Shown one piece after another: positions 8,274-61,933 of a stretch of 64,000 bases of DNA. The translations under genes and the position numbers were made by a program. The stretch spans positions 3,849 to 67,848 of the forward strand of contig CAZWOL010000006.1 of assembly GCA_964635325.1 (NCBI GenBank), in the 5' to 3' direction. This stretch comes from an uncultured Pseudobdellovibrionaceae bacterium. Lineage in GTDB: Bacteria; Bdellovibrionota_B; Oligoflexia; Oligoflexales; Bog-1112. The notes under the pieces were generated by a model that made no database searches, was not told where the DNA came from, and worked only from the letters and a program-made list of their open reading frames with translations. The stretch's first letter is position 1, and each line of letters begins with the position of its first letter.

Positions 8274-8627
8274 TTAGAATCGGCCACGGCCTCCGCCGAA
8301 ACCGCCACGGTTACCGTTGCGATCTCCACCACGGTTTCCACCGTTACCACCACCGAAACCACCGCGATTGCTGCGTGGTTCCATTGGGCGTGCTTCATTT
8401 ACATTGATAGCGCGTCCTTCGTAGTCAGCACCGTTGAACTTTGTAATCGCTTCTTGAGCTTCTGCATCCGTTGCCATTTCAACGAATCCGAAACCTTTGC
8501 AGCGACCAGTGTCGCGATCGGTGATAACTTTTGCAGAGACGACTGTTCCAACTTGTGAAAACGTATCCATAAGGACTTGGTCTGTTGCTGAAAACGGAAG
8601 ATTTCCTACGTACAATTTCTTACCCAT
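8274..8627 (-). CDS. RRM-type RNA-binding protein with Gly/Arg-rich (RGG-like) C-terminal tail
   Basis: 117 aa. RNP2 LYVGNL, RNP1 KGFGFVEM, and the tail RSNRGGFGGGNGGNRGGDRNGNRGGFGGGRGRF. SD GGAGG precedes the ATG. Confidence 0.9.
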   Translation of the reverse strand: MGKKLYVGNLPFSATDQVLMDTFSQVGTVVSAKVITDRDTGRCKGFGFVEMATDAEAQEAITKFNGADYEGRAINVNEARPMEPRSNRGGFGGGNGGNRGGDRNGNRGGFGGGRGRF

Positions 8628-8746: not shown

Positions 8747-9325
8747 CTATTTGTGTCCGACACTCAAAAACAATCGCCGGGCCGAAGAAATCAGAAAAGG
8801 TTCTTTAAATTCAGCCGCTTGCCTATTGAGTCGAATCAGTTCCAGAGCTTCCACTTCAGCCTCTAAACGCTGTCGAAGTTGAGCAAACTGATGAAGTTTT
8901 CGGCGTTGGGAAGTGCGTAAGCGTAGACCAGATTGTATTTTTTTTCCACAAAATTCGATAGTTAGGTCAGTGATTGGCTCCAAAATGGGGGAGCCGCTGA
9001 GACGACACAGAACCAAATGAACCCAAAACATATGGCTCCAAAGAATCCAGTATGATTGGACTAACTTTTGCAACTTTTCTCCAAAAACCTTTGAACAACG
9101 GAGCACACCGAGCCCCTGTGGAGAAAGGTAGGAGCTTGGACGCAAAGCCAAGGCTTGAATTTTCCCGACTAGAGACTGGAGTTGTTTCTTCTTAGTCAGC
9201 ACAGATGAACGCGTACGCTTTGCCTCCTGCGAACAGACCAGGAGTGGTTTGGTTTGCATCTCTCCTGCGATTTGCTTCGCTAAAAAGAGATAGTCTCGAT
9301 CCCATTTCTCTAGAAGGTCATTCAT
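8747..9325 (-). CDS. Hypothetical protein (about 192 aa), translationally coupled to the upstream unknown ORF
   Basis: ORF-track entry 8747-9328 begins at TTG; the adjacent ATG at 9325 is preferred. It overlaps the upstream stop (9318-9320) by 8 nt. No family motif recognised. Confidence 0.6.
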   Translation of the reverse strand: MNDLLEKWDRDYLFLAKQIAGEMQTKPLLVCSQEAKRTRSSVLTKKKQLQSLVGKIQALALRPSSYLSPQGLGVLRCSKVFGEKLQKLVQSYWILWSHMFWVHLVLCRLSGSPILEPITDLTIEFCGKKIQSGLRLRTSQRRKLHQFAQLRQRLEAEVEALELIRLNRQAAEFKEPFLISSARRLFLSVGHK

Positions 9326-9986
9326 CAATCAACTCTGAAGCACTCATATGTTTAAGCATATAAGGTTGACGAAGATTATAGACTGGAGCTGACTCAGCTA
9401 ATTCTTTTCGTTGCAAAAAGTGGTTGCGGCGCATACGCAAATCCGCTTCTTGGTCCTGAAGTTCCACATGATTCTCTTTGAGTTCGGTATCCAAAGTCTC
9501 AATGAATCTTAGTAACTGCGCTAATGAAAACTGCTGTGTCTCAGGAAAAGTTGAATGAAAATGTTGCAACAAACTCTGAGACAAGGCCTGCACCTGTTCC
9601 GTCTCGAAGTCCAATTGACTCTCGAGATTTTGAACATGACCGAGAATCTTGCGCAAACGTGACAAGCGAAATATATTTTGCCAAGCCCCAGCATCACAAT
9701 TTGCACTCTCTGATGCTTTGTATACCTTTTTTGCTAACGAAAGCATGCTACTCAGCAACTTCTCTCGATCTCGCCAGTGTTGATGAAAGAGTTTGGTTTC
9801 CAATACTCCCAATGGACGTCGAGCTTTTGTCCTTTCTCGTTGCTCCTGAAAAAGATTTTCTTTGAGATCGATAATTTTCATGGATCTCACATTATACTCA
9901 TCTTGAGAAAGGCTCCCATCTTCCCATAGAAGCTGCAAGCGCTCATCTAACGCAAGGATGCGATCTTCATAAGAAGATGAATTCAT
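9318..9986 (-). CDS. Hypothetical coiled-coil protein (about 222 aa)
   Basis: ORF 9318-10028. The internal ATG at 9986 (MNSSSYEDRILALDE...) is preceded by GGGAG at 9-nt spacing, so it is the preferred start. Heptad-like, Q/E/L/R-rich sequence with no recognisable domain. Confidence 0.6.
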   Translation of the reverse strand: MNSSSYEDRILALDERLQLLWEDGSLSQDEYNVRSMKIIDLKENLFQEQRERTKARRPLGVLETKLFHQHWRDREKLLSSMLSLAKKVYKASESANCDAGAWQNIFRLSRLRKILGHVQNLESQLDFETEQVQALSQSLLQHFHSTFPETQQFSLAQLLRFIETLDTELKENHVELQDQEADLRMRRNHFLQRKELAESAPVYNLRQPYMLKHMSASELIDE

Positions 9987-10156
9987 TTCACCGAACTCCC
10001 GGTTTACAAATATCCAAGCTTGGCACACTTATGACACTGCTTCTATAGTGTCGCATGTTCGCTTTTACCTTGTAGCCTGTCGAAAATGCCGTATAAATTT
10101 TGCCTAGCTCGATGTACGAGTATCTGTCCATTGGTCTGTTTGTCGAAGGAATATTT

Positions 10157-14383: not shown

Positions 14384-14920
14384 CTATTCTTCTTCGTCGC
14401 CGCCTGCTTCGTCTTTGTCATCGTCTTCACGTTCACGGACGATGCCAACACCTTCTGGTCCACGTGGGTGGTGATGGCCTGGGCCACGACCTCTCATCGC
14501 AGCGGAAACAAAAGTCTGAACAGAGTTTTGCATTTCACCTGCAAAGCCACGCTCAGTTTGATGAGTAACAGAGTAAGGTAGGAGACCGATAAATCTTGCT
14601 CGTTTGATTGCAACTGTCAATTTGCGTTGTTGCTCTTGGGTTGCACCAGAAATACGTCGTGGAATAATTTTGCCACGTTCCGTTACAAAGCGACGCAGTA
14701 AGTCTGCATCTTTGTAGTCGATAACAATAGATGGATCGAGCGAACGCTTCTTACGAGAAAGCATACGTTTCTTTTTGCGACGTGGACCACCGTGTCCATT
14801 ACGTCCACCATCTCGGCCGCCTTCGCGACCTTCACGGCCTTCGCGGCCTTCACCGCTAGAACCGCGACCTTCGCTGCTAGCGCCTACGCTAGAATTAGAA
14901 TTCGAAAATGTCGATCTCAC
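14384..14920 (-). CDS. rpsR: 30S ribosomal protein S18 with long N-terminal Gly/Arg/Glu-rich and C-terminal His/Gly/acidic extensions
   Basis: 178 aa. Central core [50 protein letters not shown] is unmistakably bS18. GTG start at 14920 is preceded by AAGGAG at 5 nt. About 65 aa precede the core and about 45 aa follow it. Confidence 0.88.
14823..14864 (-). repeat. 9-nt tandem coding repeat (about 4 units) inside the rpsR N-terminal extension
   Basis: Minus strand reads GAAGGCCGC GAAGGCCGT GAAGGTCGC GAAGGCGGC, encoding [12 protein letters not shown]. Confidence 0.85.
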
Positions 14921-26173: not shown

Positions 26174-26339
26174 GCGAGCTACCGATCCTTGTAACAACTC
26201 TTAGCATTTACACTTTTGACAAATCGGGTACACTTCAGCTTTCGAGTTGAATTTTCCCTATTTGATGGTATCGGTCAGATTTGTTTTCGTTATAGCATCT
26301 TTTCGTGAGGGTCTGAAATTGGTTAATAAATTGAAACAC

Positions 26340-27074
26340 ATGTTCTTCTTCGGCCTATTACTCACCGCCAGCTGTGCAGAAAAGGGCATTGTCGATGATA
26401 ACCCGCAAGAATCCTTTGCGAATGTTCGCATTCCTTATGAAGATCATAATTTCGAAATCGCTATCAAAAAGCTTGGTGAATTTAAAAGTCGTTTCCCATA
26501 CAGCCGCTTTGCAAGCGAAGCTGAACTCCTTATTGCCGACTGTCACTTTGAGCTCGGTAAATTTGCAGAAGCCGGCGTCGAGTATGAGCAGTTTGTAAAA
26601 CTCCATCCCAAACACCCACAATTGGGATTTGCTCTCTTCAGGATAGGAATGTCCTATTGGAAAGATGCCCCGAATGAGATTGATCGCGAGCAAGAATACA
26701 CCCGTCTCGCTATTCAGAAGTGGCAGAGACTCTTGAAAGAATATCCTGACAGTTCTGAAAGTAGAGAAGCAAAACAGCTGATGGAAAAAGGACAACGTCG
26801 CATCGCAGAAGCACAGGACTTCATCGCACGTTTCTATTGTCGAAAAGAGATTTGGGATTCATGTGTGTACGAGAGCATGAACATTCTTGAGAACTTCCCA
26901 CACGAGAAGGATCTTGCGAAAGAAGCTATTCAACGAGCCGCAAAAGGTTTTGCAAAGCTTGCGAAGCATTACAATCCGGAGCACAAGGATAAAAATTTAT
27001 TCTATCGAGATTCCACAAAAGAAGACTTGGAGAAAAAAGCAAGAGAGTTTAAGGAACGAGCCGCACGCTTGTAG
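26340..27074 (+). CDS. bamD: Outer membrane protein assembly factor BamD (TPR lipoprotein)
   Basis: The ATG at 26340 gives MFFFGLLLTASCAEKG, with lipobox LTASC. The FPYSRFASEAELLIADCHFELGKF, HPKHPQ and EYPDSSESREA repeats fit BamD/YfiO. Confidence 0.85.
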   Translation: MFFFGLLLTASCAEKGIVDDNPQESFANVRIPYEDHNFEIAIKKLGEFKSRFPYSRFASEAELLIADCHFELGKFAEAGVEYEQFVKLHPKHPQLGFALFRIGMSYWKDAPNEIDREQEYTRLAIQKWQRLLKEYPDSSESREAKQLMEKGQRRIAEAQDFIARFYCRKEIWDSCVYESMNILENFPHEKDLAKEAIQRAAKGFAKLAKHYNPEHKDKNLFYRDSTKEDLEKKAREFKERAARL

Positions 27075-27161: not shown

Positions 27162-28670
27162 TCAGCTCTCGAGCCCTCGACTCGTATGTTCAGCAACTTT
27201 TTCTTCAATCTCTTTTTTAAGTCGACCCACTGCGAAAACCCATGCAACGAGGATGATTGCTGTCAGCACAGCAATGTATGGAACTGTCGCTGCAAGTCCA
27301 CCAACAAAGTAAAGCAGGAATTGGAATATAAAAGACCCACCAGACTTACCTAGACGAGCACCAATACCATCAATAACGGCCTTACCCATGCGCTGACTGT
27401 GTCGACTTAGAGGAATAAAAGCCATCTCCTTGGTTGCATCAAAGACCGTGTACTTAGAAGCTCGGACCAAACAATGCTGTATAGAACCGATAAGCACTAC
27501 GATGTGGATAAAGGGTGACGAGAAGAGACTGATCACCACATCACCAAGCAGACCTTGGTCAAAGAGCAAGCAAAAGAAAAAGGCAGCACAAGTGATCGCA
27601 AGCAATATAGGCGTCATCAAGGCAGCGGGATACCAACCAAACTTTTGAATCACTTTTCCGGAAACAAAAACCGCAAGAAGAGTCGCAACGATACCTTTAA
27701 TCGTAGAAACTTGATTAAGATAGATGTTCAGTGCGCCAGTATCTTCTTTGAAGCGTTGGCCCACCTGATCAGTCCACAGAATATCTGCCAGGTTGTAGAC
27801 AATATAGTAACCGAGAACCACAATAGCCAGATACGTGAGGTGTCGAGACTTGCGAACGTATCGGAAGCTCTCGAGAAGCGAAAAGCCTTTTTCTTCTTCC
27901 TGATCAATCTTATGTGTGCCATCTAAGACAAGAGTTTGGTCTTTGGCAATGAGACGGTTTAGACCATAGAAAAATGCTAAAAGTGCGATACCAGCAAGCA
28001 CAACACTCCATATGAAGAACTCAAGAGACTCTCCCCAATTGCTACCCTGATAGCAAAGGCAGAAGTGCCCAGCAGCGACCGGAGCAATGTTTGCACTCAA
28101 AGCAAAGACACTGTAGGAGCGCTTGGCCTCTGAAAAAACTGTGACTTCATTCACAAAGCCCCAGAACAGCATGTTGAGAATAATATTCCCCCAAAGCTCG
28201 GAGAATAGATAAAAAAGTGTGTAATGCCAGTATCGCACCATTGCGACAAAACCTTTGGCTCCAGCTGGAAGAACGGCCTGTAGAAAGTCCCCTCCACGAA
28301 CCCATTCTAGCTGCTCACGATTGGGATAGATGACGGTAATAAAAAAGATAAAAAAGAAAAGGAAGATGGAAACCATAACATAGAAGACTTTTTCGATACC
28401 CATCCTGCGCACAAGCACGGTGAAGAGCAGGGTGAGCAACAAAGTACCCGGGAGTATGCCCCAAATCTTAATAAATGGAATAATCTCGGCTCCAGTGCTC
28501 TGACTGGACACGACCATAGCGATCTTGATCGTACGTAAGATATCGTAAATAAATGCAATCAGGAAAAAAATGATAAGCGTTGTAAAAAACCTGAGACGAT
28601 TATGCTCAGGAATAGGAAGGCCCCAATCAGCCAATTTCTTATTGATTTTAGGCCAATAGTGACTTGCCAT
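27162..28670 (-). CDS. tlc: TLC/NTT-family nucleotide (ATP/ADP-type) transporter
   Basis: 502 aa, about 12 hydrophobic segments. The N-terminal third YDILRTIKIAMVVSSQSTGAEIIPFIKIWGILPGTL parallels the remembered Chlamydia Npt1 / Rickettsia Tlc1 block (YTILRDTKDTLIVT..GAEAIPFIKLW.VVPSAV). Confidence 0.85.
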   Translation of the reverse strand: MASHYWPKINKKLADWGLPIPEHNRLRFFTTLIIFFLIAFIYDILRTIKIAMVVSSQSTGAEIIPFIKIWGILPGTLLLTLLFTVLVRRMGIEKVFYVMVSIFLFFFIFFITVIYPNREQLEWVRGGDFLQAVLPAGAKGFVAMVRYWHYTLFYLFSELWGNIILNMLFWGFVNEVTVFSEAKRSYSVFALSANIAPVAAGHFCLCYQGSNWGESLEFFIWSVVLAGIALLAFFYGLNRLIAKDQTLVLDGTHKIDQEEEKGFSLLESFRYVRKSRHLTYLAIVVLGYYIVYNLADILWTDQVGQRFKEDTGALNIYLNQVSTIKGIVATLLAVFVSGKVIQKFGWYPAALMTPILLAITCAAFFFCLLFDQGLLGDVVISLFSSPFIHIVVLIGSIQHCLVRASKYTVFDATKEMAFIPLSRHSQRMGKAVIDGIGARLGKSGGSFIFQFLLYFVGGLAATVPYIAVLTAIILVAWVFAVGRLKKEIEEKVAEHTSRGLES

Positions 28671-28999
28671 AGTTCCCCCCGCTGAGAAAAAAAGAAGCTC
28701 TTGGACTCAGCAAATTTTGTAAAGAAATTCGCAACATACCCTAACTATTTATCTTTAGAATCAGAGTTCGGTAAACGGCCGACTTTTTCAGAATTGGAGG
28801 AGGCATTCTTCTCACAATTCTTGACAAACTGGAAGGAAAACCTTCTTAACGCAGTAAATTCAGGAAGATAACTATAAAACGCGCAAAGGACAGACCTACT
28901 TAAACGCTAATTTTCGTCAAATGGAGTCAATGGTTTGCAAATTTCTACCGATACGAAGGAGAAAGCTAAACGTACCGCCTAAAGAAGACTGAGAACGCT

Positions 29000-30253
29000 A
29001 TGCAACGAACCTCAACCAATGTCATCGGCGCTTTGTTACTCCTTGGGATCACCCCTCTGATATCACTATGCACACCAGCAAGCGTCCAATCTATCGACAA
29101 ATCCTCAAAAACAGTGGGAACCTCTCTAGCGGAACATGCCAGTTCAAGCACATCAACCGAGATCGAAACACGTCCATCTGTTTCTGCAAATGAAATTGAT
29201 ACGGATGAATTTATGATTCGTAGAATAAGCGTTGGAATGGAAACCTATATCAACTCTCAGACACCGGTTGTGAATTTTGAAGTGCCAAAGAATGCAGATT
29301 GGGTGGAAATCACTCGCTGTTCGACCAACCTAAGCATCCGTGGAATTAGCAATACAACACGCATCGAAGATATAGAACTTGCTAACCTTAGCCCACTTGA
29401 AGAAGAACAATTATTCAAAAACAATGACTATTGGAACATCGCAAACAAAAGCGGCTGCGAACAAGTAACGTCCGGTACTGTGATTCCCAATTTTTACGAT
29501 TCATGGGCACCGAGTGGGAGCTTTCGTTATCTACTTCGGGCTTGCGTGAGTGCTGACCGTCTCACAGATACGACAATCATAGGTAATCGCAATTGCTCGA
29601 GACAGATCGCAGTTTCCGGTCCAACGCTCGACTATGTAAACACGCGTGAGAAAGCTCAAAAAGATGCGCTATCTGATGCAAACGTTGCATCGTCTGAAAT
29701 TCTTGCAATTCTACGCACCGCAAAACAACAGGCTGATACATACGCCTGTTACATACAGTGGTGCGAATGCGGAACAACCGCAAATGACCAGTCCATCTGC
29801 CAAAGGGACGAAAAAGGTCTGCCTAAGAGCTGCGATAATGGAGAATACGCTCGACAGGTCGACAAAAAGAAAAAAGATGCAGTCACTATGCTTGTCGCAA
29901 TTGGACTTGATATTGCTCTTGCTGCAGCCACAACACCCTCTATTGGACCCCTTTCTCTATTGATGAATAGCGTTGCTATTAGTGGTATGTCTTTTAGTGT
30001 TATGTTCAAATCATTAGTAGTACAGACACAAGACTTCCCTCGTGTCTGCAGCAAGGGCATTGCTCTAGACTCTCAAATGTCGACAACAGCTAAAGCTGTG
30101 CAAGCTGCCAAAGCTAAGTACGATTACAGCATGTGCAAAGTGCAGTCCATCAGCGCACAAACAGGAGCTGCCGCAGGGACAGATGCTGCTGCAGGCGACA
30201 ACAAATTGGATTGTAGCGGCACAGACACAACTGGAGGGGGACAGAACCAATGA
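29000..30253 (+). CDS. Exported Cys-rich protein of unknown family, paralogue A (417 aa)
   Basis: N-terminal signal sequence (ALLLLGITPLISLC) and an S/T-rich linker. Conserved block SGSFRYLLRACVSADR..NRNCS is shared with the next ORF. Gly/Ala-rich hydrophobic stretch MLVAIGLDIALAAATTPSIGPLSLLMNSVAISGMSFSVMF and an Ala/Gly/Thr-rich tail. Confidence 0.7.
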   Translation: MQRTSTNVIGALLLLGITPLISLCTPASVQSIDKSSKTVGTSLAEHASSSTSTEIETRPSVSANEIDTDEFMIRRISVGMETYINSQTPVVNFEVPKNADWVEITRCSTNLSIRGISNTTRIEDIELANLSPLEEEQLFKNNDYWNIANKSGCEQVTSGTVIPNFYDSWAPSGSFRYLLRACVSADRLTDTTIIGNRNCSRQIAVSGPTLDYVNTREKAQKDALSDANVASSEILAILRTAKQQADTYACYIQWCECGTTANDQSICQRDEKGLPKSCDNGEYARQVDKKKKDAVTMLVAIGLDIALAAATTPSIGPLSLLMNSVAISGMSFSVMFKSLVVQTQDFPRVCSKGIALDSQMSTTAKAVQAAKAKYDYSMCKVQSISAQTGAAAGTDAAAGDNKLDCSGTDTTGGGQNQ

Positions 30254-31599
30254 AACTAAAGATCAAAAACTCTCTGTCTCAATTTGTTTTAACAGGACTG
30301 ATTGCTAGTAGCGCATTCTTCACGTTTGCATGCACACAATCTTCAAATACAAATAAAACAACAAATAGCTCTGGAGTGCAGCCCAAAACATCTCTGGGTA
30401 CTGATGGATCCTCAACATCAAGCGACACTTCGACAGATACTACACTCGCTTCAATAAATCCAACGACAGCTTCTGCTTCGATCGACAGCAAAGTCAATAT
30501 GACTGTATCTGATGTAGTTAATGACAGCAGCATTCTTTTCCCAACCCTAACCATCAACAAAGTTACTGCAGACTTCATTCGTCTCCTACGCTGTCCAGCA
30601 AGCTACGAGTTTCAAACTCTCAGTGGTAAAAAAATTCGTGGTGCAAACATGAGTTCTCTCACTATAGTAGAACGCAAATATGCATGGAGCGATGCTACCG
30701 GTGATAATCGCAAGTGTAAGATCGTTGCATCCTACATCAATAGCCCGACATACATCGATATTACACCTAGCTCCGGAAGTTTTTTCTATGTCGCAAACCC
30801 TTGCGTAACCCAAGCACGATCAACAACTGGACAAGAAGAGTGTAGCTATGACCTATCATTTTCAGAGTCCGTAATCAGTTATGAAAACACACTTATAGAC
30901 AAAATACGCGACCAAGCCATAGCCCTCTCTAAGGATCAAGCAATTCTGAATGCGGCTATCGATGATGTCCGCATAACCGCAAAAAAACTAGAAAATAGCA
31001 TCAACGCGTGCCAAGAATACTTTGCTTTTACAGAAACCCAAAAATCGATACGCAGCGGACTTATTATGCTTGGTATTAATATCGTTGGTTCCGTACTTGG
31101 GGGTGTGCTTTTTGGTCCGAATGGAGCAATAATGGTCGGAATGATGACGCAGCTCATGGGAGCCGAGATGCTCAAACCACTGCTTGGACTAGAAACAGGC
31201 TTTGACACCTGTCTAAGTGGTGAAGAATCCGTTGCTCAGCAAGGACTCACAGATCAAAAAGCGATCGACAAAGCACGACAATTCGCACAAATGTATGAAG
31301 AAAAATTCAATGTTCGCGAAACCATAAATCATCTCACCACACTGCTTGCAGATCCACAGGCTGCGGACCCATCGACAACACCACCGACTCCTGCGAGTCC
31401 TGGAGGAACAATTGCACAAGCAATTGCCCGCATGAAGAAAACGATGGATGAAATGCATGCACTCGATGCTAGGATAACCTCTGCAAATGTAGCTGTCGCA
31501 AAAGGGAATAAATTTGTCGAAAAAATCAAAGAGCAGCCTGCAAACAGTGACGGAACTCTACCGTTTGATATCTCTTCGCTATTTTCTACAGCTCAATAA
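30250..31599 (+). CDS. Putative lipoprotein of unknown family, paralogue B (449 aa)
   Basis: The ATG overlaps the upstream stop (ATGA, 4 nt). Lipobox-like AFFTFAC and an S/T-rich linker. Block SGSFFYVANPCVTQAR..QEECS is paralogous to ORF A. Glycine-zipper-like stretch GLIMLGINIVGSVLGGVLFGPNGAIMVGMM. Confidence 0.7.
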   Translation: MKLKIKNSLSQFVLTGLIASSAFFTFACTQSSNTNKTTNSSGVQPKTSLGTDGSSTSSDTSTDTTLASINPTTASASIDSKVNMTVSDVVNDSSILFPTLTINKVTADFIRLLRCPASYEFQTLSGKKIRGANMSSLTIVERKYAWSDATGDNRKCKIVASYINSPTYIDITPSSGSFFYVANPCVTQARSTTGQEECSYDLSFSESVISYENTLIDKIRDQAIALSKDQAILNAAIDDVRITAKKLENSINACQEYFAFTETQKSIRSGLIMLGINIVGSVLGGVLFGPNGAIMVGMMTQLMGAEMLKPLLGLETGFDTCLSGEESVAQQGLTDQKAIDKARQFAQMYEEKFNVRETINHLTTLLADPQAADPSTTPPTPASPGGTIAQAIARMKKTMDEMHALDARITSANVAVAKGNKFVEKIKEQPANSDGTLPFDISSLFSTAQ

Positions 31600-31916: not shown

Positions 31917-32912
31917 CTAAACTTCCTCCAAAGCAGTTGAATAAGGCAGATCCTTCCGAAATGGAATAACCGCATCCACATCGCATCCTAAAATCAAAGC
32001 TAGCAGCCTATCCAAACCCAGGGCATTACCAAAACAGTCTGGCATTCCTCGATCAAGCGCTGAATGAAAGTCCTCATCGACTTCTGGGAGAGTCTTTGCC
32101 ATAAGAGCGCGCTCTTCAAGGACATCACGAACCCGCTTACGATTTTCTTCGGGATCGCAAAGTTCATGAAAACCATTGCTCAATTCAATGCCATGAATAT
32201 AAAACTCAAAACGTTTCGCTACTCCATTTTCGACACGAGCTAAGGCTGCCTGTGATGCAGGATAATCATAGAGGACTACCCATCCCAAACTCGTCAAAGC
32301 AGGTTCTATTTTTTCTAGAAGAATCTTAAAAAAAGCTGTCGCAAAATCTTCATAGCCTTGGATGGAAATCACTCCAAGTGCCTTCGCCTTAGCCGCTAGT
32401 TGAGGGTCGTTATCGATAAGTGTAAGACCCGCATATTTTTCAAAGGCTTCATAAACACTGATCGCATGCAGTTTGGCATTAGAATCTAACGCAACACTGA
32501 ATTCCGCTGCTAGGTCACGAATGCAGAAGCGAATGAGATCCTCACTAAGCTGCAAAAAAGCAGACCACGTTGCACCGACCTGATAAAACTCGAGCATGGT
32601 AAATTCTGGATGATGCCACGGTCCTATCTCACCTTCGTTACGGAAGCAGGGGGCTATTTGATAAAGCGCAGGAATGCCTGCTGCAATGGCTCGTTTGAGA
32701 GCAAGCTCAGGACTAGAGCGCATCCATAAAGGATGGGCTCTACGATGATGATCTATCCAATGCGTTTGAAAATACTCGAGGTACAGTTCTGTTCCAGGAC
32801 ACTTCACAAGAATAGGGGTATCCACCTCGAGGAAGTTCCTGGAATCAAAAAAGCGTTGTACAGAGCGTTTAAGCTTATTCCTTGCGCGTAAGAGACTTGC
32901 TAGATTTTCCAT
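31917..32912 (-). CDS. epmA: EF-P beta-lysine ligase (EpmA/PoxA/GenX; truncated class-II LysRS paralogue)
   Basis: 331 aa. N-terminus RARNKLKRSVQRFFDSRNFLEVDTPILV plus CFRNEG and the EFTMLEFY class-II motif 2 region. Lacks an anticodon-binding domain, and the length fits EpmA. Confidence 0.85.
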   Translation of the reverse strand: MENLASLLRARNKLKRSVQRFFDSRNFLEVDTPILVKCPGTELYLEYFQTHWIDHHRRAHPLWMRSSPELALKRAIAAGIPALYQIAPCFRNEGEIGPWHHPEFTMLEFYQVGATWSAFLQLSEDLIRFCIRDLAAEFSVALDSNAKLHAISVYEAFEKYAGLTLIDNDPQLAAKAKALGVISIQGYEDFATAFFKILLEKIEPALTSLGWVVLYDYPASQAALARVENGVAKRFEFYIHGIELSNGFHELCDPEENRKRVRDVLEERALMAKTLPEVDEDFHSALDRGMPDCFGNALGLDRLLALILGCDVDAVIPFRKDLPYSTALEEV

Positions 32913-35394
32913 GATTTTGGGTCTTTCTTCGAGCCGCTGCTTGAGGAACTAATTTTGGATCAAGAAGTTCCTGGTTGAAGTTGGCGGACTCTAGCTTCTT
33001 ATGGTCCATTTTAGCAAGCTTTTTACTGATAATATCCAGAGCTGTGCCTTTAGCAAAGGTCTTCTCGTGGACCGACTTAGCTCCAAAAGCGACCCCTGTT
33101 GCAATCTCAAAAGCCTCCCAAAAGTAACGCACTGGATATATCTTTAGGTAATTGCGAGCTATAGCCTGACGAGTTTCTTTGTCGAGCATGAGATTTGAAC
33201 AATTTTGAATGGGAATGATCACCTTGTAATTTTTTCCCTTACCCAATGTCTTACAGGTGCGATAAAAGCCCTCTATCTTTTCATTAATTCCACCTACTGG
33301 TTGAATGTCCCCAAGCTGGTTTAAACTGCCGGTCATAGCCATATTCTGGCACACCGGTATCTCCGCAAGCGCACTGATGACTGCCGTCAATTCGGAGGCT
33401 GTAGCACTGTCACCATCGATCATGTCATAGGACTGCTCAAAACACAGACTTGCCGAAATACCCAACGAGTATTGTCGAGCAAGTAAAGCTGTGAGAAATC
33501 CCGAAAGAATGTACATGCCTTTGTCGTGAATCTTACCCGATAGCTTACTTGCCCGATCGATATTGAAGATTCCATTGTTACTAATTGAGGTCGTACAAGT
33601 GATACGACAGATTTTACCAAAACTGTAATCACCCAGATCGTATACGCTCAAACCATTGACCTGACCTATGCGCTTACCTTCGATAGACACCATAATATCT
33701 CGTGTGCGAACCATATCCATGAGATGACGTTCGAAAAGATTAACGCGATAGAATTTTTGCTCTAAAGCTCGCTCGACATGGCTACGTTTAACAACTTTCT
33801 GTCGCTGTTCACGAGCAACAAATTCAGCCTCGATAATGATATCTTTAATCTTACTAAACTCAGTCGTAAGCTTACTTTGATCCCCCACAAGACGTGAGCT
33901 ATGTTCGATAATTGCAGCAACACCGCTTGGATCAAAGTGATGAAGTTTCTCTTTTTCGCAACGTGTCGCAATAAACGAAACATAGGCTTGCATGTTTTCT
34001 TTACTGCGCACCATTTTGTAATCAAAATCAGATTTAATCTTAAAAATCTTTGGAAACTCGTCATCCAAACTTAAAAGCAAATGATAAACCTCATCCCCTC
34101 CGATCATCAGCACCTTTAGATCAAGGGGAATAGGCTGAGGTCGCAATGTGGATGCAGGAATCAAAGCAAGATGCTCATCTAATTCTTCAACATAGCCCTC
34201 ACGATTACGCAAAACTCTCTTCAGACTCTCCCATACGTAGGGCACCTTAAGAAGGTCCTGCACATCCAGAATAAGAAAGCCACCGTTAGCTCGGTGAATT
34301 GCTCCCGCTTTGATTTTGGTAAAATCAGTAACATACATCCCATGATCGACACTGCGTTCGATTTTGCCAAAGAGATTGTAGTATGTAGGGTTGGTCTCAA
34401 GAAGAACCGGAGCACATTTTGACTTTGCATTGTCTACAAATACGTTCACTTTATATTTTACAAAATGATCACGCTCCAGACTCATACCTTGCTCAGTCTC
34501 CGCACCCACCTCATCAGCATGAACAAAGTCTGAGAGATTTTCGACGATATGATCACGCACTTGCTCAAGATACTCAACGAGCTCTGCATACTTCACACAG
34601 GCCTTAGCTAGAGGCTCTATGGCTACCTCTACCATCTTACGCCCAATCTCTTTCTCTAGATCACGAATCAGCTCCTTTGTTTTCACTTCAATTGTTCGGA
34701 TCTTACGCGCGTATTTCAGGACTATTGGCTCCAGGGTGCTGCGTTTCTCTTCGATCTTCTCTTTTTCTTTGTCTTTGAGTTTTCCGTATTCTTTCTCAGT
34801 CAGCGCACGCCCACCTGCAACCGGAATAGTTTCGATTCCGATAGATGTGGATTTCAATTGAAAACTCATTCGCTTGGCTATTTTTTCGAGTTCTGCATAT
34901 TTTTTTGCCTGCTTTTCACTGCTATGAGACATGATACTACTCACAGTGCGTTCATAGTCTTCACTTTGCAAGGCTGAAGGAATCGCACGTCTTAGATCAC
35001 CTATGAAGCTATCCATAAGACGTGCAAATCGGCTTCCCTCACCTGAATGCAACTGCACTGCTCGAGGAGTATCTCTTTTGTTAAAGTCGTAAACGTAGAT
35101 CCAGTCGTTGGGTTCGGGAAGATTCTTTGCGTGTTTTTCAACAAAATTCTGAATAACCCCAGTCTTGCCTGTTCCGGAATAACCAGAAACGTAGATGTTG
35201 TACCCTGGTTTTTTTATACCAAGACCAACATCAATTGCACGGACCGCACCCGCTTGAGAGATAATCTCATCACTGGGTTTGATCTGACGTGTATCCTGGA
35301 ATTTAAAGAAACTGGAGGGACAAGATAAAAATACCTGATCGGCTTTTAGCGGCTTGGTGATCTCGTGATGTTTTTTTTTAAGCGCACAGGTCAT
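32875..35394 (-). CDS. LonC-like (COG1067-type) AAA+/S16 protease with a large coiled-coil insertion
   Basis: 839 aa. Walker A GYSGTGKTG, Walker-B-like GGFLILDVQD (no DE pair), and a K/E-rich insertion of roughly 150 aa. C-terminal Lon protease domain with the Ser context MIDGDSATASEL and Lys context GGINEKIEGF. The 3' end overlaps epmA by 38 nt. Confidence 0.85.
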   Translation of the reverse strand: MTCALKKKHHEITKPLKADQVFLSCPSSFFKFQDTRQIKPSDEIISQAGAVRAIDVGLGIKKPGYNIYVSGYSGTGKTGVIQNFVEKHAKNLPEPNDWIYVYDFNKRDTPRAVQLHSGEGSRFARLMDSFIGDLRRAIPSALQSEDYERTVSSIMSHSSEKQAKKYAELEKIAKRMSFQLKSTSIGIETIPVAGGRALTEKEYGKLKDKEKEKIEEKRSTLEPIVLKYARKIRTIEVKTKELIRDLEKEIGRKMVEVAIEPLAKACVKYAELVEYLEQVRDHIVENLSDFVHADEVGAETEQGMSLERDHFVKYKVNVFVDNAKSKCAPVLLETNPTYYNLFGKIERSVDHGMYVTDFTKIKAGAIHRANGGFLILDVQDLLKVPYVWESLKRVLRNREGYVEELDEHLALIPASTLRPQPIPLDLKVLMIGGDEVYHLLLSLDDEFPKIFKIKSDFDYKMVRSKENMQAYVSFIATRCEKEKLHHFDPSGVAAIIEHSSRLVGDQSKLTTEFSKIKDIIIEAEFVAREQRQKVVKRSHVERALEQKFYRVNLFERHLMDMVRTRDIMVSIEGKRIGQVNGLSVYDLGDYSFGKICRITCTTSISNNGIFNIDRASKLSGKIHDKGMYILSGFLTALLARQYSLGISASLCFEQSYDMIDGDSATASELTAVISALAEIPVCQNMAMTGSLNQLGDIQPVGGINEKIEGFYRTCKTLGKGKNYKVIIPIQNCSNLMLDKETRQAIARNYLKIYPVRYFWEAFEIATGVAFGAKSVHEKTFAKGTALDIISKKLAKMDHKKLESANFNQELLDPKLVPQAAARRKTQNHGKSSKSLTRKE

Positions 35395-36089
35395 CCTTCC
35401 TTTATTGGGTAAAGTTGATTCACAAGGGCTTTATATTCTTCCCATAGCTCGTAACGAGCTGCAGGTTCTTCGATCGCCGCCAGAATACTCCCCAAAAGCA
35501 GAGGGCCTTTGGCTGAGTTTTCATTCAGAAAATACTCTCCATAGGCATCGATGAAATCGATAGCCTCCGAAACTCCATCACGATTTTGATGGCTCATCGC
35601 AACAGAGACACCCTTCTGAAGCCAACGGCTAATTTCTTGAATATTGACCTCGGCCCGAATTCCCATACGGATTAGATCACTGCAAAGAGTCGTCAAATAT
35701 TCGCGAGGAAGTTCGCTCTCATACTGACCCGCAAAATAGCAAAGTGTTTTGTATGCATGGATCCATTTGCCTTCGGCTTGCGTAGCACGGATCTTATTCA
35801 TGACAGCATCAAAAGCACGCACAGCCTTGCGACGGCTCTCCGACTTTTTGCGCTCACGCTCCTCGATCTGATCTTTGTAGCGTCGCCGCAGTAGCGCAAC
35901 CGCTTCAAACAACTCACTGCCGCTCACGGTGCCACCGATTTCAACCTCTTTGCCCAAGCCCTCGTTGAGGTACTGCAAGACATGGGGAAGAGACGTGTCC
36001 GTTGCTTCTGCGAGCTTATGAACCGTCCACTTATCGTGCACCGACCAATTGTTGATAACTTCATTAGCCTTGTAGATAAAGTCGATCAT
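35391..36089 (-). CDS. Hypothetical protein (232 aa), possible N-terminal HTH, coupled to the LonC-like gene
   Basis: The stop overlaps the LonC-like ATG (ATGA). The N-terminal WTVHKLAEATDTSLPHVLQYL looks HTH-like, and the rest is helical. No family recognised. Confidence 0.6.
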   Translation of the reverse strand: MIDFIYKANEVINNWSVHDKWTVHKLAEATDTSLPHVLQYLNEGLGKEVEIGGTVSGSELFEAVALLRRRYKDQIEERERKKSESRRKAVRAFDAVMNKIRATQAEGKWIHAYKTLCYFAGQYESELPREYLTTLCSDLIRMGIRAEVNIQEISRWLQKGVSVAMSHQNRDGVSEAIDFIDAYGEYFLNENSAKGPLLLGSILAAIEEPAARYELWEEYKALVNQLYPIKEG

Positions 36090-45836: not shown

Positions 45837-46985
45837 TTGGATATGATACGCTCACTGGACCTTCGCCTCTCATTTTTAAAAACGTGTGACGCAAAGGAGG
45901 TTCAACATCTCCAATCTTTGCTGCAAAATATTTTTGCCTCTACCGAGCAGCATCACGGTGAAAGCGAACTGGCCTACTTAGGCTTCGACCTACTCTACTG
46001 TTTGCTAAAACATCGCAACTGGATTGCAAATCCTCTTTTCCAACACCTTCTGCTTCATCATTTGATCAACGACTTCCGTACAGATCGAGTATGGGCTGAG
46101 CATTTTTTAAGTTCAGCATTGCCTCCATTAGGCCAAAAAAAATTTCACCCAGCCTACGCTGAGGAGCGTACCTTTCTCCTTTACTTGCTAGTTTTGGTAT
46201 TGAATTGTCGCAACCCAGACTGTCTTACAGAAGAAATTGGTCTCGGTTCGAGCATTTTGCGTCTGATTCGTGATGCACTGACTCAGACACGTTCTGAGAA
46301 CACTATTGTGTTTGGATCAACTCTCACAACAGAGTCCTTAGAAATTCTCGAAGAGTTGGCGGAAGACTATCTTAAAAATCCGTCGATCACTAATGTCTAT
46401 CCCATTTACTTTGCTCTTTTAGCTAGTGAAGAAAATTGGAAAGACAGAGATACAATGCAGCTTGCTAAAGACATATTTGAAATTTTACTTCATATAGGGC
46501 AACGCAAATCTCTGACTGAGGTGGAGTTACGCGAAAAGCTTGAAGCAACACGCCATGGCTTAGGTCAGCAATCAAACACAATCCTACGTTTTCTTAAGGC
46601 TCAGCGTTTTGTTTTTGAAATTTCATCAACTCGACGCATTCAACTCACGCAGCACGGATACGAGCAAACTGCAGATGCCTACGCAAGAAAACAACACGGC
46701 ATGCAAGTTTCTGCAGATACATTTTATGGACTTCATCCCAATTGGCAACTTGCCCTTATTGAGACATGGCCGTTAGAGCAAGCTGCAGATCTGTGGACCT
46801 GTCTAAAGCTTGCAAACTATATACCTCCGCGTAGTTTTGATCTCGTTTGCAAGCGCTTTCAAAATGTGATTCAAAGCATAGATTGGGAGCCTTGGCTTGC
46901 AAAAATGGCTATTTTTCACCCACATAAGAATCTAGCTTCCTTTACAGAACCCACGAAAAATGCTAATGCTCTTTCAATACCTTAA
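45837..46985 (+). CDS. Hypothetical helical protein (about 380 aa), possible internal winged-helix segment
   Basis: Start is TTG 45837 or ATG 45843, 6-12 nt after the NYN stop. No known motif. The segment KSLTEVELREKLEATRHGLGQQSNTILRFLKAQRFVFEISSTRRIQLTQHG looks wHTH-like. Confidence 0.6.
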   Translation: MDMIRSLDLRLSFLKTCDAKEVQHLQSLLQNIFASTEQHHGESELAYLGFDLLYCLLKHRNWIANPLFQHLLLHHLINDFRTDRVWAEHFLSSALPPLGQKKFHPAYAEERTFLLYLLVLVLNCRNPDCLTEEIGLGSSILRLIRDALTQTRSENTIVFGSTLTTESLEILEELAEDYLKNPSITNVYPIYFALLASEENWKDRDTMQLAKDIFEILLHIGQRKSLTEVELREKLEATRHGLGQQSNTILRFLKAQRFVFEISSTRRIQLTQHGYEQTADAYARKQHGMQVSADTFYGLHPNWQLALIETWPLEQAADLWTCLKLANYIPPRSFDLVCKRFQNVIQSIDWEPWLAKMAIFHPHKNLASFTEPTKNANALSIP

Positions 46986-54260: not shown

Positions 54261-54290
54261 CACCAACCTCAATTTGTGTCTGAGAATAAA

Positions 54291-56772: not shown

Positions 56773-57702
56773 TTGAAGGATGAACTTGAATTCCATAGAC
56801 ACTGCAATGGAAGTCTAATCATCGCGAAAGGAACTTTTTTGTCTATAACTTTTTCCCAGATACTACTTTCCCCACTCACCTGGATTTTCTTCGTCTTTGG
56901 CTCGATTCTAGGCAGTTTTGCCAATGTATGCATTTACCGCCTCCCCCGAGAAATCTTTTGGCGCTCACACCGCTCCTTTTGCCCGCACTGTGAAGTCCCC
57001 ATACCTTTCTGGTGGAACCTACCCATTTTTGGTTTCCTCCTACTCAGAGGAAAAACTCACTGTTGTGACAAAGCCATTCCACGCTATTATCCGCTCGTAG
57101 AACTCTTCTGCGGATTGATGGTTAGCTACATCTACTGGCACTTTCCATTTTGGGGTAACGAACTCCCCCTTATGCCCCTACATATTCCAACGCTTCTTCG
57201 CTTTCTACATGCGTTGGTCTTTGCTTATCTGCTTCTGATTGCCTCAGTTATTGACATGCAGCACATGATCATCCCCGATGTGATTAGTCTGCCTATGGTT
57301 GCAGTAGCCCCACTTATTGCTTGGCTTCATCCAGATCTAACACTCCGCAGTTCGGGACTCGGCATTCTCCTTGGTGGAGGTGTATTCTTCCTGGTGGGGT
57401 GGATCTATATTGTACTGAGACGCAAAGAAGGCATGGGAATGGGTGATGTCAAGCTCCTTGGCGCCATCGGTGGTTGGCTCGGCTACGAAGCCCTTCTGCC
57501 CACTATACTTTTCGCATCGATCAGCGGCACCGTACTGAGTCTGAGTTGGATGCTATTCAAACGCGAATGGGACATGCAGGCTCCAATACCTTTCGGTCCA
57601 TTCCTTGCAACTGGTGCTGCATTTTATCTGCTTGCTCCTATGCACTGGCTCGAAGCCATTTCACATTTACAAATGGCACTTGCAAATGCACTCACCAACT
57701 AA
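56773..57702 (+). CDS. pilD: Prepilin peptidase (A24 family, PilD-like)
   Basis: Contains GSILGSFANVCIYRLP, a Cys-rich cytoplasmic loop (CPHCEVPI ... HCCDKAI) and the catalytic Asp contexts MIIPDVISLP and GMGMGDVKLLGAIG. The exact start is uncertain. Confidence 0.88.
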   Translation: MKDELEFHRHCNGSLIIAKGTFLSITFSQILLSPLTWIFFVFGSILGSFANVCIYRLPREIFWRSHRSFCPHCEVPIPFWWNLPIFGFLLLRGKTHCCDKAIPRYYPLVELFCGLMVSYIYWHFPFWGNELPLMPLHIPTLLRFLHALVFAYLLLIASVIDMQHMIIPDVISLPMVAVAPLIAWLHPDLTLRSSGLGILLGGGVFFLVGWIYIVLRRKEGMGMGDVKLLGAIGGWLGYEALLPTILFASISGTVLSLSWMLFKREWDMQAPIPFGPFLATGAAFYLLAPMHWLEAISHLQMALANALTN

Positions 57703-58792: not shown

Positions 58793-58827
58793 GCGAGACC
58801 CCTAATCGAGAAAGGAAAGGAGCTCAT

Positions 58828-60060: not shown

Positions 60061-60078
60061 GAACAAGGGACAATACAT

Positions 60079-61905: not shown

Positions 61906-61933
61906 TTTCAATGGAAGCTAAAGATCCGCAAAT

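What the first reader, a model, noticed from the sequence alone, without database searches (positions are those of the whole stretch)
27162..28670. TLC/NTT nucleotide transporter in a genome with apparently full central metabolism
The 502-aa polytopic protein carries the N-terminal signature I remember from Chlamydia Npt1 and Rickettsia Tlc1 (LR.IK....V....GAE.IPFIK.W..LP). This family (ATP/ADP antiporters and nucleotide/NAD importers) is largely confined to obligate intracellular bacteria, plastids and microsporidia. Here it co-occurs with enolase, iPGM, ETF/beta-oxidation enzymes, arginine and haem biosynthesis, and type IV pilus processing. That combination points to a facultative host-associated or predatory lifestyle (energy or nucleotide parasitism), or to a non-canonical substrate.
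Basis: partly seen in the sequence, partly recalled or inferred. Interest (0 to 1): 0.65.

Follow-up and report, generated by a model that had tools for sequence, protein, structure and literature searches.

The report
Uncharacterised-subfamily nucleotide transporter in Oligoflexia-like bacterium
The gene really encodes a nucleotide transporter of the kind that cell-invading bacteria use to take nucleotides from their hosts, but it belongs to an untested branch closer to the nucleotide importers than to the ATP/ADP "energy-stealing" exchangers, and it is an old, inherited gene of a little-known lineage related to predatory bacteria.

Summary
Window 27162-28670 (-) encodes an intact 502-aa TLC/NTT protein: Pfam PF03219 at 438 bits over its full length, and a predicted fold with TM 0.85-0.90 to the solved Chlamydia and Arabidopsis NTT1 structures.

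It lies in the canonical NTT clade. In NJ trees it never groups with the Npt1/AtNTT1-type ATP/ADP exchangers. In 200 of 200 bootstraps its first characterised neighbours are the nucleotide-provisioning transporters PamNTT2/3, SnNTT2, Npt2 and PamNTT5.

It belongs to an uncharacterised subfamily marked by coupled changes at near-invariant charged sites: TM1 K-D to K-I, TM7 E..WK to D..WT, H122E and R427. That subfamily is absent from the 2017 NTT survey dataset and is shared with Coxiellaceae and Francisellaceae MAGs.

The gene's composition matches the rest of the window. Its position next to BamD-TonB-ETF is kept in relatives down to 42% NTT identity. The host is probably a deep Bdellovibrionota/Oligoflexia-like lineage with ordinary metabolic genes.

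The most likely function is uptake of nucleoside triphosphates from prey or host cells. Substrate and coupling mode cannot be read from sequence. This is a new member of a known kind, of moderate interest.

The parts
27162..28670 (-). NTT/TLC nucleotide transporter gene, 502 aa, about 12 TM helices. Key residues: R46, K49, I50 (replaces the invariant Asp of the TM1 'K-D' motif), K68 (= AtNTT1 K155), E122, E158 (= E245), D296 (= E385, Glu to Asp), T300 (replaces the Lys of 'WK'), R427, K442 (= K527, the gamma-phosphate/Pi lysine).
28671..28999. 329-bp intergenic region between the NTT gene and the divergently transcribed lipoprotein pair. It presumably holds both promoters. No consensus sigma-70 site and no Rfam element were found in it.
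   Evidence: Function is inferred from the geometry only.
29000..30253 (+). unkA: 417-aa predicted lipoprotein with no Pfam match. It has an invariant Cys24 after the signal peptide, conserved cysteines and a Gly-rich hydrophobic segment, and is a paralogue of unkB. It is a conserved neighbour of the NTT gene. A functional link is unproven.
30250..31599 (+). unkB: 449-aa predicted lipoprotein with no Pfam match and an invariant A27-C28. It overlaps unkA by 4 bp, so the two form an operon. It is a conserved neighbour of the NTT gene. A functional link is unproven.
   Evidence: The AF2 model was unusable (pLDDT 40.5).
26247..27074 (+). BamD/YfiO outer-membrane assembly lipoprotein, convergent with the NTT gene. 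It serves as a syntenic landmark, not a functional part. The NTT-BamD-TonB(-SLT-Zip-Aminotran_5)-ETF order is kept down to 42% NTT identity.

Best explanation
The gene encodes an inner-membrane nucleotide transporter (TLC/NTT family, MFS-like 12-helix fold) of an uncultured bacterium that is probably Bdellovibrionota/Oligoflexia-like. It most likely imports nucleoside triphosphates into the cytoplasm, possibly several rNTPs including ATP. The purpose would be to provision nucleotides taken from a prey or host cell, by H+-coupled net uptake or by NTP hetero-exchange, rather than to run as a dedicated ATP/ADP+Pi energy-parasitism exchanger.

Shown: family membership, fold, conserved K68/E158/K442, phylogenetic position, native composition and old vertical inheritance.

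Inferred: substrate class, from nearest characterised relatives and the retained gamma-phosphate lysine. Inferred: altered gating or coupling, from the co-loss of the TM1 Asp and TM7 Lys, which probably lie on the periplasmic side (inferred from MFS topology, not measured). Inferred: an ecological role as nucleotide piracy by a metabolically competent predator or facultative symbiont.
For: Family and fold:
- PF03219 at 438 bits, full length.
- PDB sequence hits 9j3n E = 2.7e-93 and 9j3j E = 3.8e-73.
- AF2 model pLDDT 89.8, pTM 0.88, with Foldseek TM 0.85/0.87 to ATP-bound CpNTT1 and 0.87/0.90 to ATP-bound AtNTT1.

Canonical clade:
- 249-365 bits to the chlamydial and plastid characterised references and 177-242 bits to the rickettsial Tlc2-5 and Lawsonia NTT1, against 36-39 bits to the PamNTT4, SnNTT4 and Halobacteriovorax types.

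Transport class:
- It grouped with the Npt1-type exchangers in 0 of 200 bootstraps.
- In a 159-taxon tree the first characterised relatives to join its lineage were PamNTT2/3, SnNTT2, Npt2 or PamNTT5 in 200 of 200 replicates.
- Of 22 columns invariant in exchangers, it has the importer state at 11 and the exchanger state at 4.
- The activities of those relatives (H+/NTP symport, NTP antiport) are listed in PMC6995639 Table 2.

Triphosphate binding:
- K442 equals PamNTT1 K446 and AtNTT1 K527, the gamma-phosphate/Pi lysine (PMC2606016).

Native and ancient gene:
- GC 0.445 against 0.449 +/- 0.019; codon-usage distance 0.200 against 0.190 +/- 0.039.
- The same locus order is seen in relatives at 77, 74, 60, 51 and 42% NTT identity.

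Lineage and ecology:
- Named PriA and NTT relatives are Oligoflexales, Oligoflexus, Pseudobdellovibrio and 'Deltaproteobacteria' MAGs.
- The sister subfamily members are Coxiellaceae and Francisellaceae MAGs.
Against: - NTT transport properties cannot be predicted from sequence similarity. Diatom NTT1 groups with exchangers yet is a symporter (PMC6995639; PMC4256464).
- The trees are neighbour-joining only, not maximum likelihood. The deep split separating the 'importer' side has weak support (87/200), and the exact 29-member subfamily clade has 22/200.
- No member of the subfamily has been characterised, and it differs from all characterised NTTs at conserved charged sites. It could therefore carry a different substrate or be an exchanger after all.
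- Nothing in the 64-kb window shows loss of nucleotide biosynthesis or a cell-invasion apparatus.
- The phylum assignment rests on 43-51% identical named hits.
Confidence: 0.5

Rival explanations
1. It is a classical ATP/ADP(+Pi) antiporter used for energy parasitism, as in Npt1, Tlc1, PamNTT1 and AtNTT1. The bacterium would draw ATP from a host or prey cytoplasm in exchange for ADP.
For: The best PDB matches by sequence and fold are the two solved ATP/ADP translocators, though these are the only NTT structures available. K68, E158 and K442 are conserved and position 296 is still acidic. Most characterised NTTs accept ATP (PMC4256464). SnNTT1 scores 330 bits, close to the top references.
Against: It never groups with exchangers (0/200; 200/200 importer-type first). 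It shares only 4 of 22 exchanger-invariant residues. It lacks the TM1 K-D and TM7 E..WK motifs. The window encodes ETF, beta-oxidation and glycolysis genes, so the cell probably makes its own ATP.
Confidence: 0.25
2. It carries a non-canonical substrate (for example NAD+, a dinucleotide or cyclic nucleotide, a nucleotide sugar or another phosphorylated cofactor), or it exports nucleotides. In that case it has nothing to do with host or prey exploitation in a free-living bacterium.
For: The subfamily is uncharacterised. Its charge pattern at otherwise invariant sites is remodelled (I50, D296, T300, E122, R427). NTT homologues are common in free-living bacteria with unknown roles (PMC5381601). 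The genome context looks free-living.
Against: The gamma-phosphate lysine K442 and the other cavity charges are kept. The NAD+ carrier PamNTT4 is only remotely related (36 bits). The other carriers of this subfamily are Coxiellaceae and Francisellaceae MAGs, families made up largely of host-associated bacteria (general knowledge). The free-living NTT homologues of Major et al. are mostly of the NTT-HEAT or PamNTT4-like types, not the canonical clade.
Confidence: 0.15
3. The NTT and the two adjacent lipoproteins form a dedicated envelope-spanning nucleotide-uptake module. The lipoproteins would provide outer-membrane or periplasmic passage or capture.
For: The pair lies directly next to the NTT gene and diverges from it in the window, L013, L004, L001 and L019. 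It also does so in the Oligoflexales locus L002, where no other window gene is syntenic. Both proteins are predicted exported lipoproteins.
Against: Distant tandem homologues of the pair (L015-L018) have no TLC gene within 7 kb. L011 and L020 keep the NTT locus without the pair. There is no fold or domain information: Pfam gives nothing and the AF2 model has pLDDT 40.5. The genes are transcribed divergently, not as one operon.
Confidence: 0.1

Closest known systems
Protochlamydia amoebophila NTT2 (rNTP antiporter) and NTT3 (UTP/H+ symporter); Simkania negevensis NTT2
   Same: These are the highest-scoring characterised relatives: 39% and 38% identity at 360 and 365 bits, with SnNTT2 at 322 bits. 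They are the first to join the window lineage in trees. They have the same length and the same single-domain architecture. They share the 'IDG..RLGKSGGS' and 'KEMAFIPL' motifs and K155/E245/K527.
   Different: Those proteins keep the TM1 'K-D', the TM7 'E..WK', His at position 122 and Leu/Ile at position 427. The window protein has I50, D296..T300, E122 and R427. They come from obligate intracellular Chlamydiae. This one comes from an Oligoflexia-like genome with ordinary metabolic genes.
Chlamydia Npt1 / CpNTT1 (PDB 9j3n) and Arabidopsis AtNTT1 (PDB 9j3j/9j3l): ATP/ADP+Pi antiporters
   Same: Same fold (TM 0.85-0.90), 33-36% identity, and a conserved gamma-phosphate/Pi lysine (K442).
   Different: They form a different branch of the canonical clade (exchangers monophyletic 177/200; the window protein never joins them). 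The window protein matches only 4 of 22 exchanger-invariant residues. It has Asp in place of Glu at E385 and has lost the TM1 Asp and TM7 Lys.
Chlamydia trachomatis Npt2 and P. amoebophila NTT5 (H+-driven net NTP importers)
   Same: They lie on the same side of the tree. Long near-identical stretches are shared with PamNTT5 (GAKGFVAMV.YWHYTLFYL; GAEIIPFIKIWG.LP).
   Different: Overall identity is only 35-36% (279-281 bits). They keep the canonical K-D and E..WK motifs.
NTT homologues of predatory or free-living bacteria in Major et al. 2017 (for example Halobacteriovorax marinus WP_014245558; NTT-HEAT fusions; PamNTT4-like proteins)
   Same: Same Pfam family. They show that NTT genes occur outside obligate intracellular organisms, including in a predator of the same phylum.
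   Different: The relationship is only remote: Halobacteriovorax 39 bits, PamNTT4 36 bits. The window protein has no HEAT or cNBD domains. None of the 377 sequences in that dataset carries this subfamily's motifs.

Membership tests
TLC/NTT nucleotide transporter family (Pfam PF03219; TCDB 2.A.12 AAA family) | Significant full-length match to the family profile | tested here: met
   PF03219 E = 4.6e-131, 438.4 bits against a cut-off of 21, profile positions 10-490 of 491.
TLC/NTT nucleotide transporter family (Pfam PF03219; TCDB 2.A.12 AAA family) | Score above the NCBIfam TIGR00769 'NTP/NDP exchange transporter' curated cut-off | tested here: not met
   381.6 bits against a cut-off of 387.2, a miss of about 6 bits. 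This fits a divergent subfamily and does not argue against family membership.
TLC/NTT nucleotide transporter family (Pfam PF03219; TCDB 2.A.12 AAA family) | 12-helix MFS-like fold as in the solved NTT structures | tested here: met
   AF2 pLDDT 89.8, pTM 0.88. Foldseek 9j3n_A TM 0.85/0.87 and 9j3l_A TM 0.87/0.90. The next-best non-NTT MFS chains are mostly around TM 0.5 and at most about 0.6 normalised to the query.
TLC/NTT nucleotide transporter family (Pfam PF03219; TCDB 2.A.12 AAA family) | Four conserved charged residues K155, E245, E385, K527 (AtNTT1 numbering; Trentmann 2000 as cited in PMC4256464 and PMC4776705) | tested here: inconclusive
   K68, E158 and K442 are identical. The E385 position is Asp (D296), a conservative change shared by the whole subfamily and by none of the characterised canonical NTTs compared here.
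TLC/NTT nucleotide transporter family (Pfam PF03219; TCDB 2.A.12 AAA family) | Demonstrated nucleotide transport | not testable with these tools
   Needs heterologous expression and labelled-substrate uptake.
ATP/ADP(+Pi) antiporter class (Npt1, Tlc1, PamNTT1, AtNTT1) | Phylogenetic grouping with characterised exchangers | tested here: not met
   It grouped with them in 0 of 200 bootstraps, while the exchangers themselves were monophyletic in 177 of 200. In the broad tree, importer-type references joined first in 200 of 200. NJ trees only.
ATP/ADP(+Pi) antiporter class (Npt1, Tlc1, PamNTT1, AtNTT1) | Gamma-phosphate/Pi-binding lysine (PamNTT1 K446 = AtNTT1 K527) | tested here: met
   K442 is present (role from PMC2606016). 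It does not discriminate, because it is conserved in all canonical NTTs examined.
ATP/ADP(+Pi) antiporter class (Npt1, Tlc1, PamNTT1, AtNTT1) | Residues invariant in exchangers and absent from importers | tested here: not met
   Of 22 such columns the window protein has the exchanger state at 4, the importer state at 11 and another state at 7.
Nucleotide-provisioning NTTs (Npt2, PamNTT2/3/5, SnNTT2) | Nearest characterised relatives in a phylogeny | tested here: met
   They were the first characterised sequences to join the window lineage in 200 of 200 replicates. The deep split itself is weakly supported (87/200).
Nucleotide-provisioning NTTs (Npt2, PamNTT2/3/5, SnNTT2) | Canonical TM1 'K-D' and TM7 'E..WK' motifs, present in all characterised members | tested here: not met
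   The window protein has K49-I50 and D296..W299-T300.
Nucleotide-provisioning NTTs (Npt2, PamNTT2/3/5, SnNTT2) | Net H+-coupled or hetero-exchange NTP uptake | not testable with these tools
   Needs transport assays with and without protonophore and with preloaded counter-substrates.
PamNTT4-like NAD+/ADP carriers and NTT-HEAT(-cNBD) fusions | Close sequence similarity to PamNTT4, or a C-terminal HEAT/cNBD domain | tested here: not met
   PamNTT4 scores 36 bits. The protein is single-domain, 502 aa, with no other Pfam domain.

The most novel reading that the evidence does not exclude
A whole uncultured order-level lineage of Bdellovibrionota/Oligoflexia-like bacteria has vertically inherited a remodelled NTT in which a TM1-TM7 ion pair is lost and R427 and E122 are gained. 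The lineage would use it, possibly together with the adjacent lipoprotein pair, for proton-driven piracy of nucleoside triphosphates from invaded prey or protist cells while keeping full energy metabolism. This would be the first NTT-based nucleotide parasitism in the predatory-bacteria phylum, and it would define a mechanistically distinct NTT subclass shared with Coxiellaceae and Francisellaceae symbionts.
Probability: 0.2. Interest if true: 0.65.

Novelty: new member of a known kind. Interest (0 to 1): 0.42.

Why it matters
NTT genes are widely used as a genomic hallmark of energy or nucleotide parasitism when lifestyle is inferred for uncultured bacteria. This case shows a canonical-clade NTT that is ancient and stably inherited in a lineage with apparently normal catabolism and biosynthesis. 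It belongs to a sizeable subfamily that nobody has assayed: about 22-29 clusters at 50% identity among the 150 nearest. That subfamily differs from every characterised NTT at conserved charged positions. Characterising one member would calibrate lifestyle inference for Oligoflexia-like, Coxiellaceae and Francisellaceae MAGs. Now that NTT structures exist, it could also show how the TM1 Asp / TM7 Lys pair contributes to gating or coupling.

Tried and rejected
1. Structure of the neighbouring lipoprotein unkB. 

2. Obligate NTT-lipoprotein module. I rejected this as a general rule. Distant tandem pairs in L015-L018 lack a nearby TLC gene. L011 and L020 keep the NTT locus without the pair.

3. 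Recent horizontal acquisition. Rejected: composition and codon usage are typical of the window, and synteny is conserved down to 42% identity.

4. Generic MFS instead of TLC. Rejected.

5. PamNTT4-like, SnNTT4-like or Halobacteriovorax-type NTT. Rejected.

6. Pseudogene in relative L004. The apparent frameshift is only 'NN' in the assembly.

7. Riboswitch, RNA element or tRNA near the gene. None found.

8. Binding-site residues from the 2025 NTT structure paper (Lin et al., Nature 641:797). The paper is not held in the library, so I could not run a residue-by-residue ligand-contact test.

9. Literature on NTTs in Oligoflexia or Bdellovibrionota. Nothing relevant was found.

10. Exact source organism. 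The contig (68,326 bp, NCBI) carries no name in the tools.
Full report
**Observation.** The window holds an intact 502-aa ORF at 27162-28670 on the minus strand, with an ATG start and a purine-rich GGGGGGAA just upstream (sequence). It matches Pfam TLC (PF03219) at E = 4.6e-131 and 438 bits over essentially the whole profile. The generic MFS_1 model scores below its threshold. NCBIfam TIGR00769 ('NTP/NDP exchange transporter') scores 381.6 bits, just under its 387.2 cut-off. The only PDB relatives by sequence are the two nucleotide translocators solved in 2025: Chlamydia pneumoniae NTT1 (9j3n, E = 2.7e-93) and Arabidopsis NTT1 (9j3j, E = 3.8e-73). An AlphaFold2 model built on 52 homologues is confident (pLDDT 89.8, pTM 0.88). 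It superposes on ATP-bound CpNTT1 and AtNTT1 at TM 0.85-0.90, whereas other MFS transporters reach mostly about 0.5 and at most about 0.6 normalised to the query.

**Gene context.**
- biosynthesis and central metabolism: ArgJ, ArgC, HemE, iPGM, enolase;
- fatty-acid and 2-oxoacid catabolism: acyl-CoA dehydrogenase, ETF alpha and beta, 3-hydroxyacyl-CoA dehydrogenase, a fused 2-oxoacid dehydrogenase E1;
- housekeeping: PriA, ClpP, MutS2;
- envelope and motility: PilD, FapA, TonB, BamD.

There is one NTT gene in the window. No tRNA or Rfam element was found. Only 64 kb is visible, so 'full central metabolism' is an extrapolation.

**Organism.**
- The closest NTT homologues (60-77% identity) come from uncultured 'Deltaproteobacteria bacterium' MAGs from groundwater and bog. 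The next (48%) comes from an Oligoflexales MAG.
- PriA from the window finds unnamed relatives at 59-67% identity. Named relatives at 43-51% are labelled Deltaproteobacteria, Oligoflexales, Oligoflexus and Pseudobdellovibrio.
- Oligoflexales belongs to Bdellovibrionota.
- I therefore place the organism, with moderate confidence, in a deep and sparsely sampled Bdellovibrionota/Oligoflexia-like lineage.

**The gene is native and old.**
- Its GC, GC3 and codon usage fall within the spread of the window's genes.
- The local order (lipoprotein pair) <-> NTT - BamD - TonB - SLT - Zip - aminotransferase - ETF-beta/alpha - ABC - ClpP - PriA is reproduced in a 779-kb contig of a relative with a 74%-identical NTT. 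It also appears in loci with 77, 60 and 51% identical NTTs.
- A trimmed version, NTT-(Ddl)-BamD-TonB-ETF, persists at 42% NTT identity in a contig that also encodes MetH, aconitase and RapA.
- This is vertical inheritance over a long time, in genomes that do not look reduced.

**Which kind of NTT.** I took 17 labelled reference sequences from the supplementary FASTA of Major et al. 2017 (PMC5381601), plus the cores of the two PDB chains.
- By BLASTP the window protein scores 249-365 bits against the chlamydial and plastid characterised NTTs and 177-242 bits against the rickettsial Tlc2-5 and Lawsonia NTT1. PamNTT3 and PamNTT2 are best at 38-39% identity. It scores only 36-39 bits against PamNTT4, SnNTT4 and the Halobacteriovorax protein. 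It therefore belongs to the 'canonical' clade that holds almost all characterised NTTs.
- In an NJ tree of 76 sequences, the window protein and its seven closest relatives form a 200/200 clade. The Npt1/PamNTT1/SnNTT1/AtNTT1 exchangers are monophyletic in 177 of 200 replicates. The window protein never (0/200) groups with them to the exclusion of Npt2, PamNTT2/3 and SnNTT2.
- An exhaustive HMMER search of 1.84 billion cluster representatives found 2,623 relatives with E <= 1e-3 and 663 with E <= 1e-30.
- In a 159-taxon tree of the best representatives plus references, the first characterised sequences to join the window lineage were the provisioning-type transporters in 200 of 200 bootstraps. 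These are PamNTT2/3, SnNTT2, Npt2 and PamNTT5. Their activities are H+/NTP symport or rNTP antiport (PMC6995639 Table 2).
- Caveats: the trees are distance trees, the deep split has only 87/200 support, and published work stresses that NTT substrate and mode cannot be predicted from sequence.

**A distinct, uncharacterised subfamily.**
- Of the four charged residues known to matter in AtNTT1 (K155, E245, E385, K527), the window protein keeps K68, E158 and K442. K442 is the gamma-phosphate/Pi lysine. At the E385 position it has Asp (D296).
- The E-to-D change travels with other changes at near-invariant positions:

| Site | Other canonical NTTs | This subfamily (window residue) |
|---|---|---|
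| TM1 motif | LRxxK-D | LRxxK-[IVL] (I50) |
| TM7 motif | NLxExxWK | NLxDxLW[TNS] (T300) |
| Position 122 | His | Glu (E122) |
| Position 427 | Leu/Ile | Arg (R427) |

- This pattern holds in 26 of 26 subfamily members and in 0 of 47 others in the first alignment.
- Among the 150 nearest cluster representatives, 26 sequences have at least 4 of the 5 states. Every characterised reference has 0 or 1.
- Loss of the TM1 Asp and loss of the TM7 Lys are tightly coupled: 114 sequences have both residues, 34 have neither and 13 are mixed (Fisher p = 7e-22, not corrected for phylogeny).
- Both residues lie near the C-terminal ends of TM1 (helix 25-55) and TM7 (helix 276-307). In an MFS fold these are the symmetry-related cavity helices, so an inter-domain ion pair lost as a unit is a reasonable inference. 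I could not measure it.
- None of the subfamily's motif variants occurs in the 377 sequences of the 2017 survey.
- Other carriers of the subfamily are Coxiellaceae and Francisellaceae MAGs, often with tandem NTT paralogues.

**Conserved neighbours.** Two paralogous ORFs without Pfam matches diverge from the NTT gene (29000-30253 and 30250-31599).
- They are predicted lipoproteins with conserved cysteines and a Gly-rich hydrophobic segment.
- They sit beside the NTT gene in all close relatives, and also in the Oligoflexales locus L002, where nothing else is syntenic.
- Distant tandem homologues occur without a nearby TLC gene. L011 and L020 lack the pair.
- The structure model was unusable.
- I record the pair as a lead, not as part of the mechanism.

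**Interpretation.** The best-supported reading is an inner-membrane importer of nucleoside triphosphates used for nucleotide provisioning by a metabolically competent, prey- or host-associated Oligoflexia-like bacterium (confidence about 0.5). A classical ATP/ADP exchanger (about 0.25) and a non-canonical substrate or role (about 0.15) remain open.

The family call and the odd context are right. The confinement premise is outdated (Major et al. 2017). The Npt1/Tlc1 analogy is not the closest one.

**Novelty.** This is a new member of a known family, in an untested subfamily. I found nothing in the searchable literature on NTTs in Oligoflexia or Bdellovibrionota beyond the remote Halobacteriovorax homologue.

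Noticed in passing
window 29000-31599 (+); also L013 6910-9791, L004 4217-6849, L001 7152-9849, L002 7041-9682, L019 1-2564: An operon of two paralogous predicted lipoproteins with no Pfam match (417 and 449 aa, 4-bp overlap). They have conserved cysteines and a Gly-rich hydrophobic segment. The operon is always adjacent to and divergent from the NTT gene in this lineage and in an Oligoflexales MAG. The family is very small (5 proteins in the word-based search). Distant tandem pairs elsewhere lack a nearby NTT.
   Followed up: partly
window 32875-36089 (-): A LonC-like AAA protease (839 aa: LonC helical, AAA_32, LonB lid and Lon_C domains) is translationally coupled to an upstream 232-aa ORF with no Pfam match. 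That ORF is 74-79% identical in relatives L001 and L013, making it an unusually well conserved unknown partner.
   Followed up: no
window 57812-63019: Four consecutive ORFs of 326-608 aa with no Pfam match at E <= 1e-3 lie directly downstream of the prepilin peptidase PilD (56773-57702). AT skew rises in this region. This could be a pilus- or surface-related cluster.
   Followed up: no
window 51858-54272 (-): An 804-aa fused alpha/beta E1 component of a 2-oxoacid dehydrogenase (E1_dh, Transket_pyr and Transketolase_C in one polypeptide) lies next to a 3-hydroxyacyl-CoA dehydrogenase.
   Followed up: no
L021 8001-11217; L003 8430-11443; L006 6673-11431: In the sister Coxiellaceae-type and Parachlamydiaceae loci, NTT genes occur as tandem arrays of two or three paralogues. 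In L021 the array directly follows the rpoA-rplQ end of the ribosomal protein operon. The window lineage has a single copy at its locus.
   Followed up: partly
window 14384-14920 (-): The listed 178-aa GTG ORF contains ribosomal protein S18 only at residues 65-114. The mechanical ORF is probably over-extended at its 5' end, and small neighbouring ribosomal or SSB genes were below my ORF size cut-off.
   Followed up: no
window 8747-10028 (-) and 45837-46985 (+): Further ORFs with no Pfam match: 193 and 236 aa, overlapping by 11 bp; and 382 aa next to a NYN-domain protein and a DUF4301 protein.
   Followed up: no
L004 around 8381-8383: The NTT gene of the bog MAG looks frameshifted in tblastn, but the break coincides with 'NN' in the assembly. 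It is an assembly gap, not evidence of a pseudogene.
   Followed up: yes
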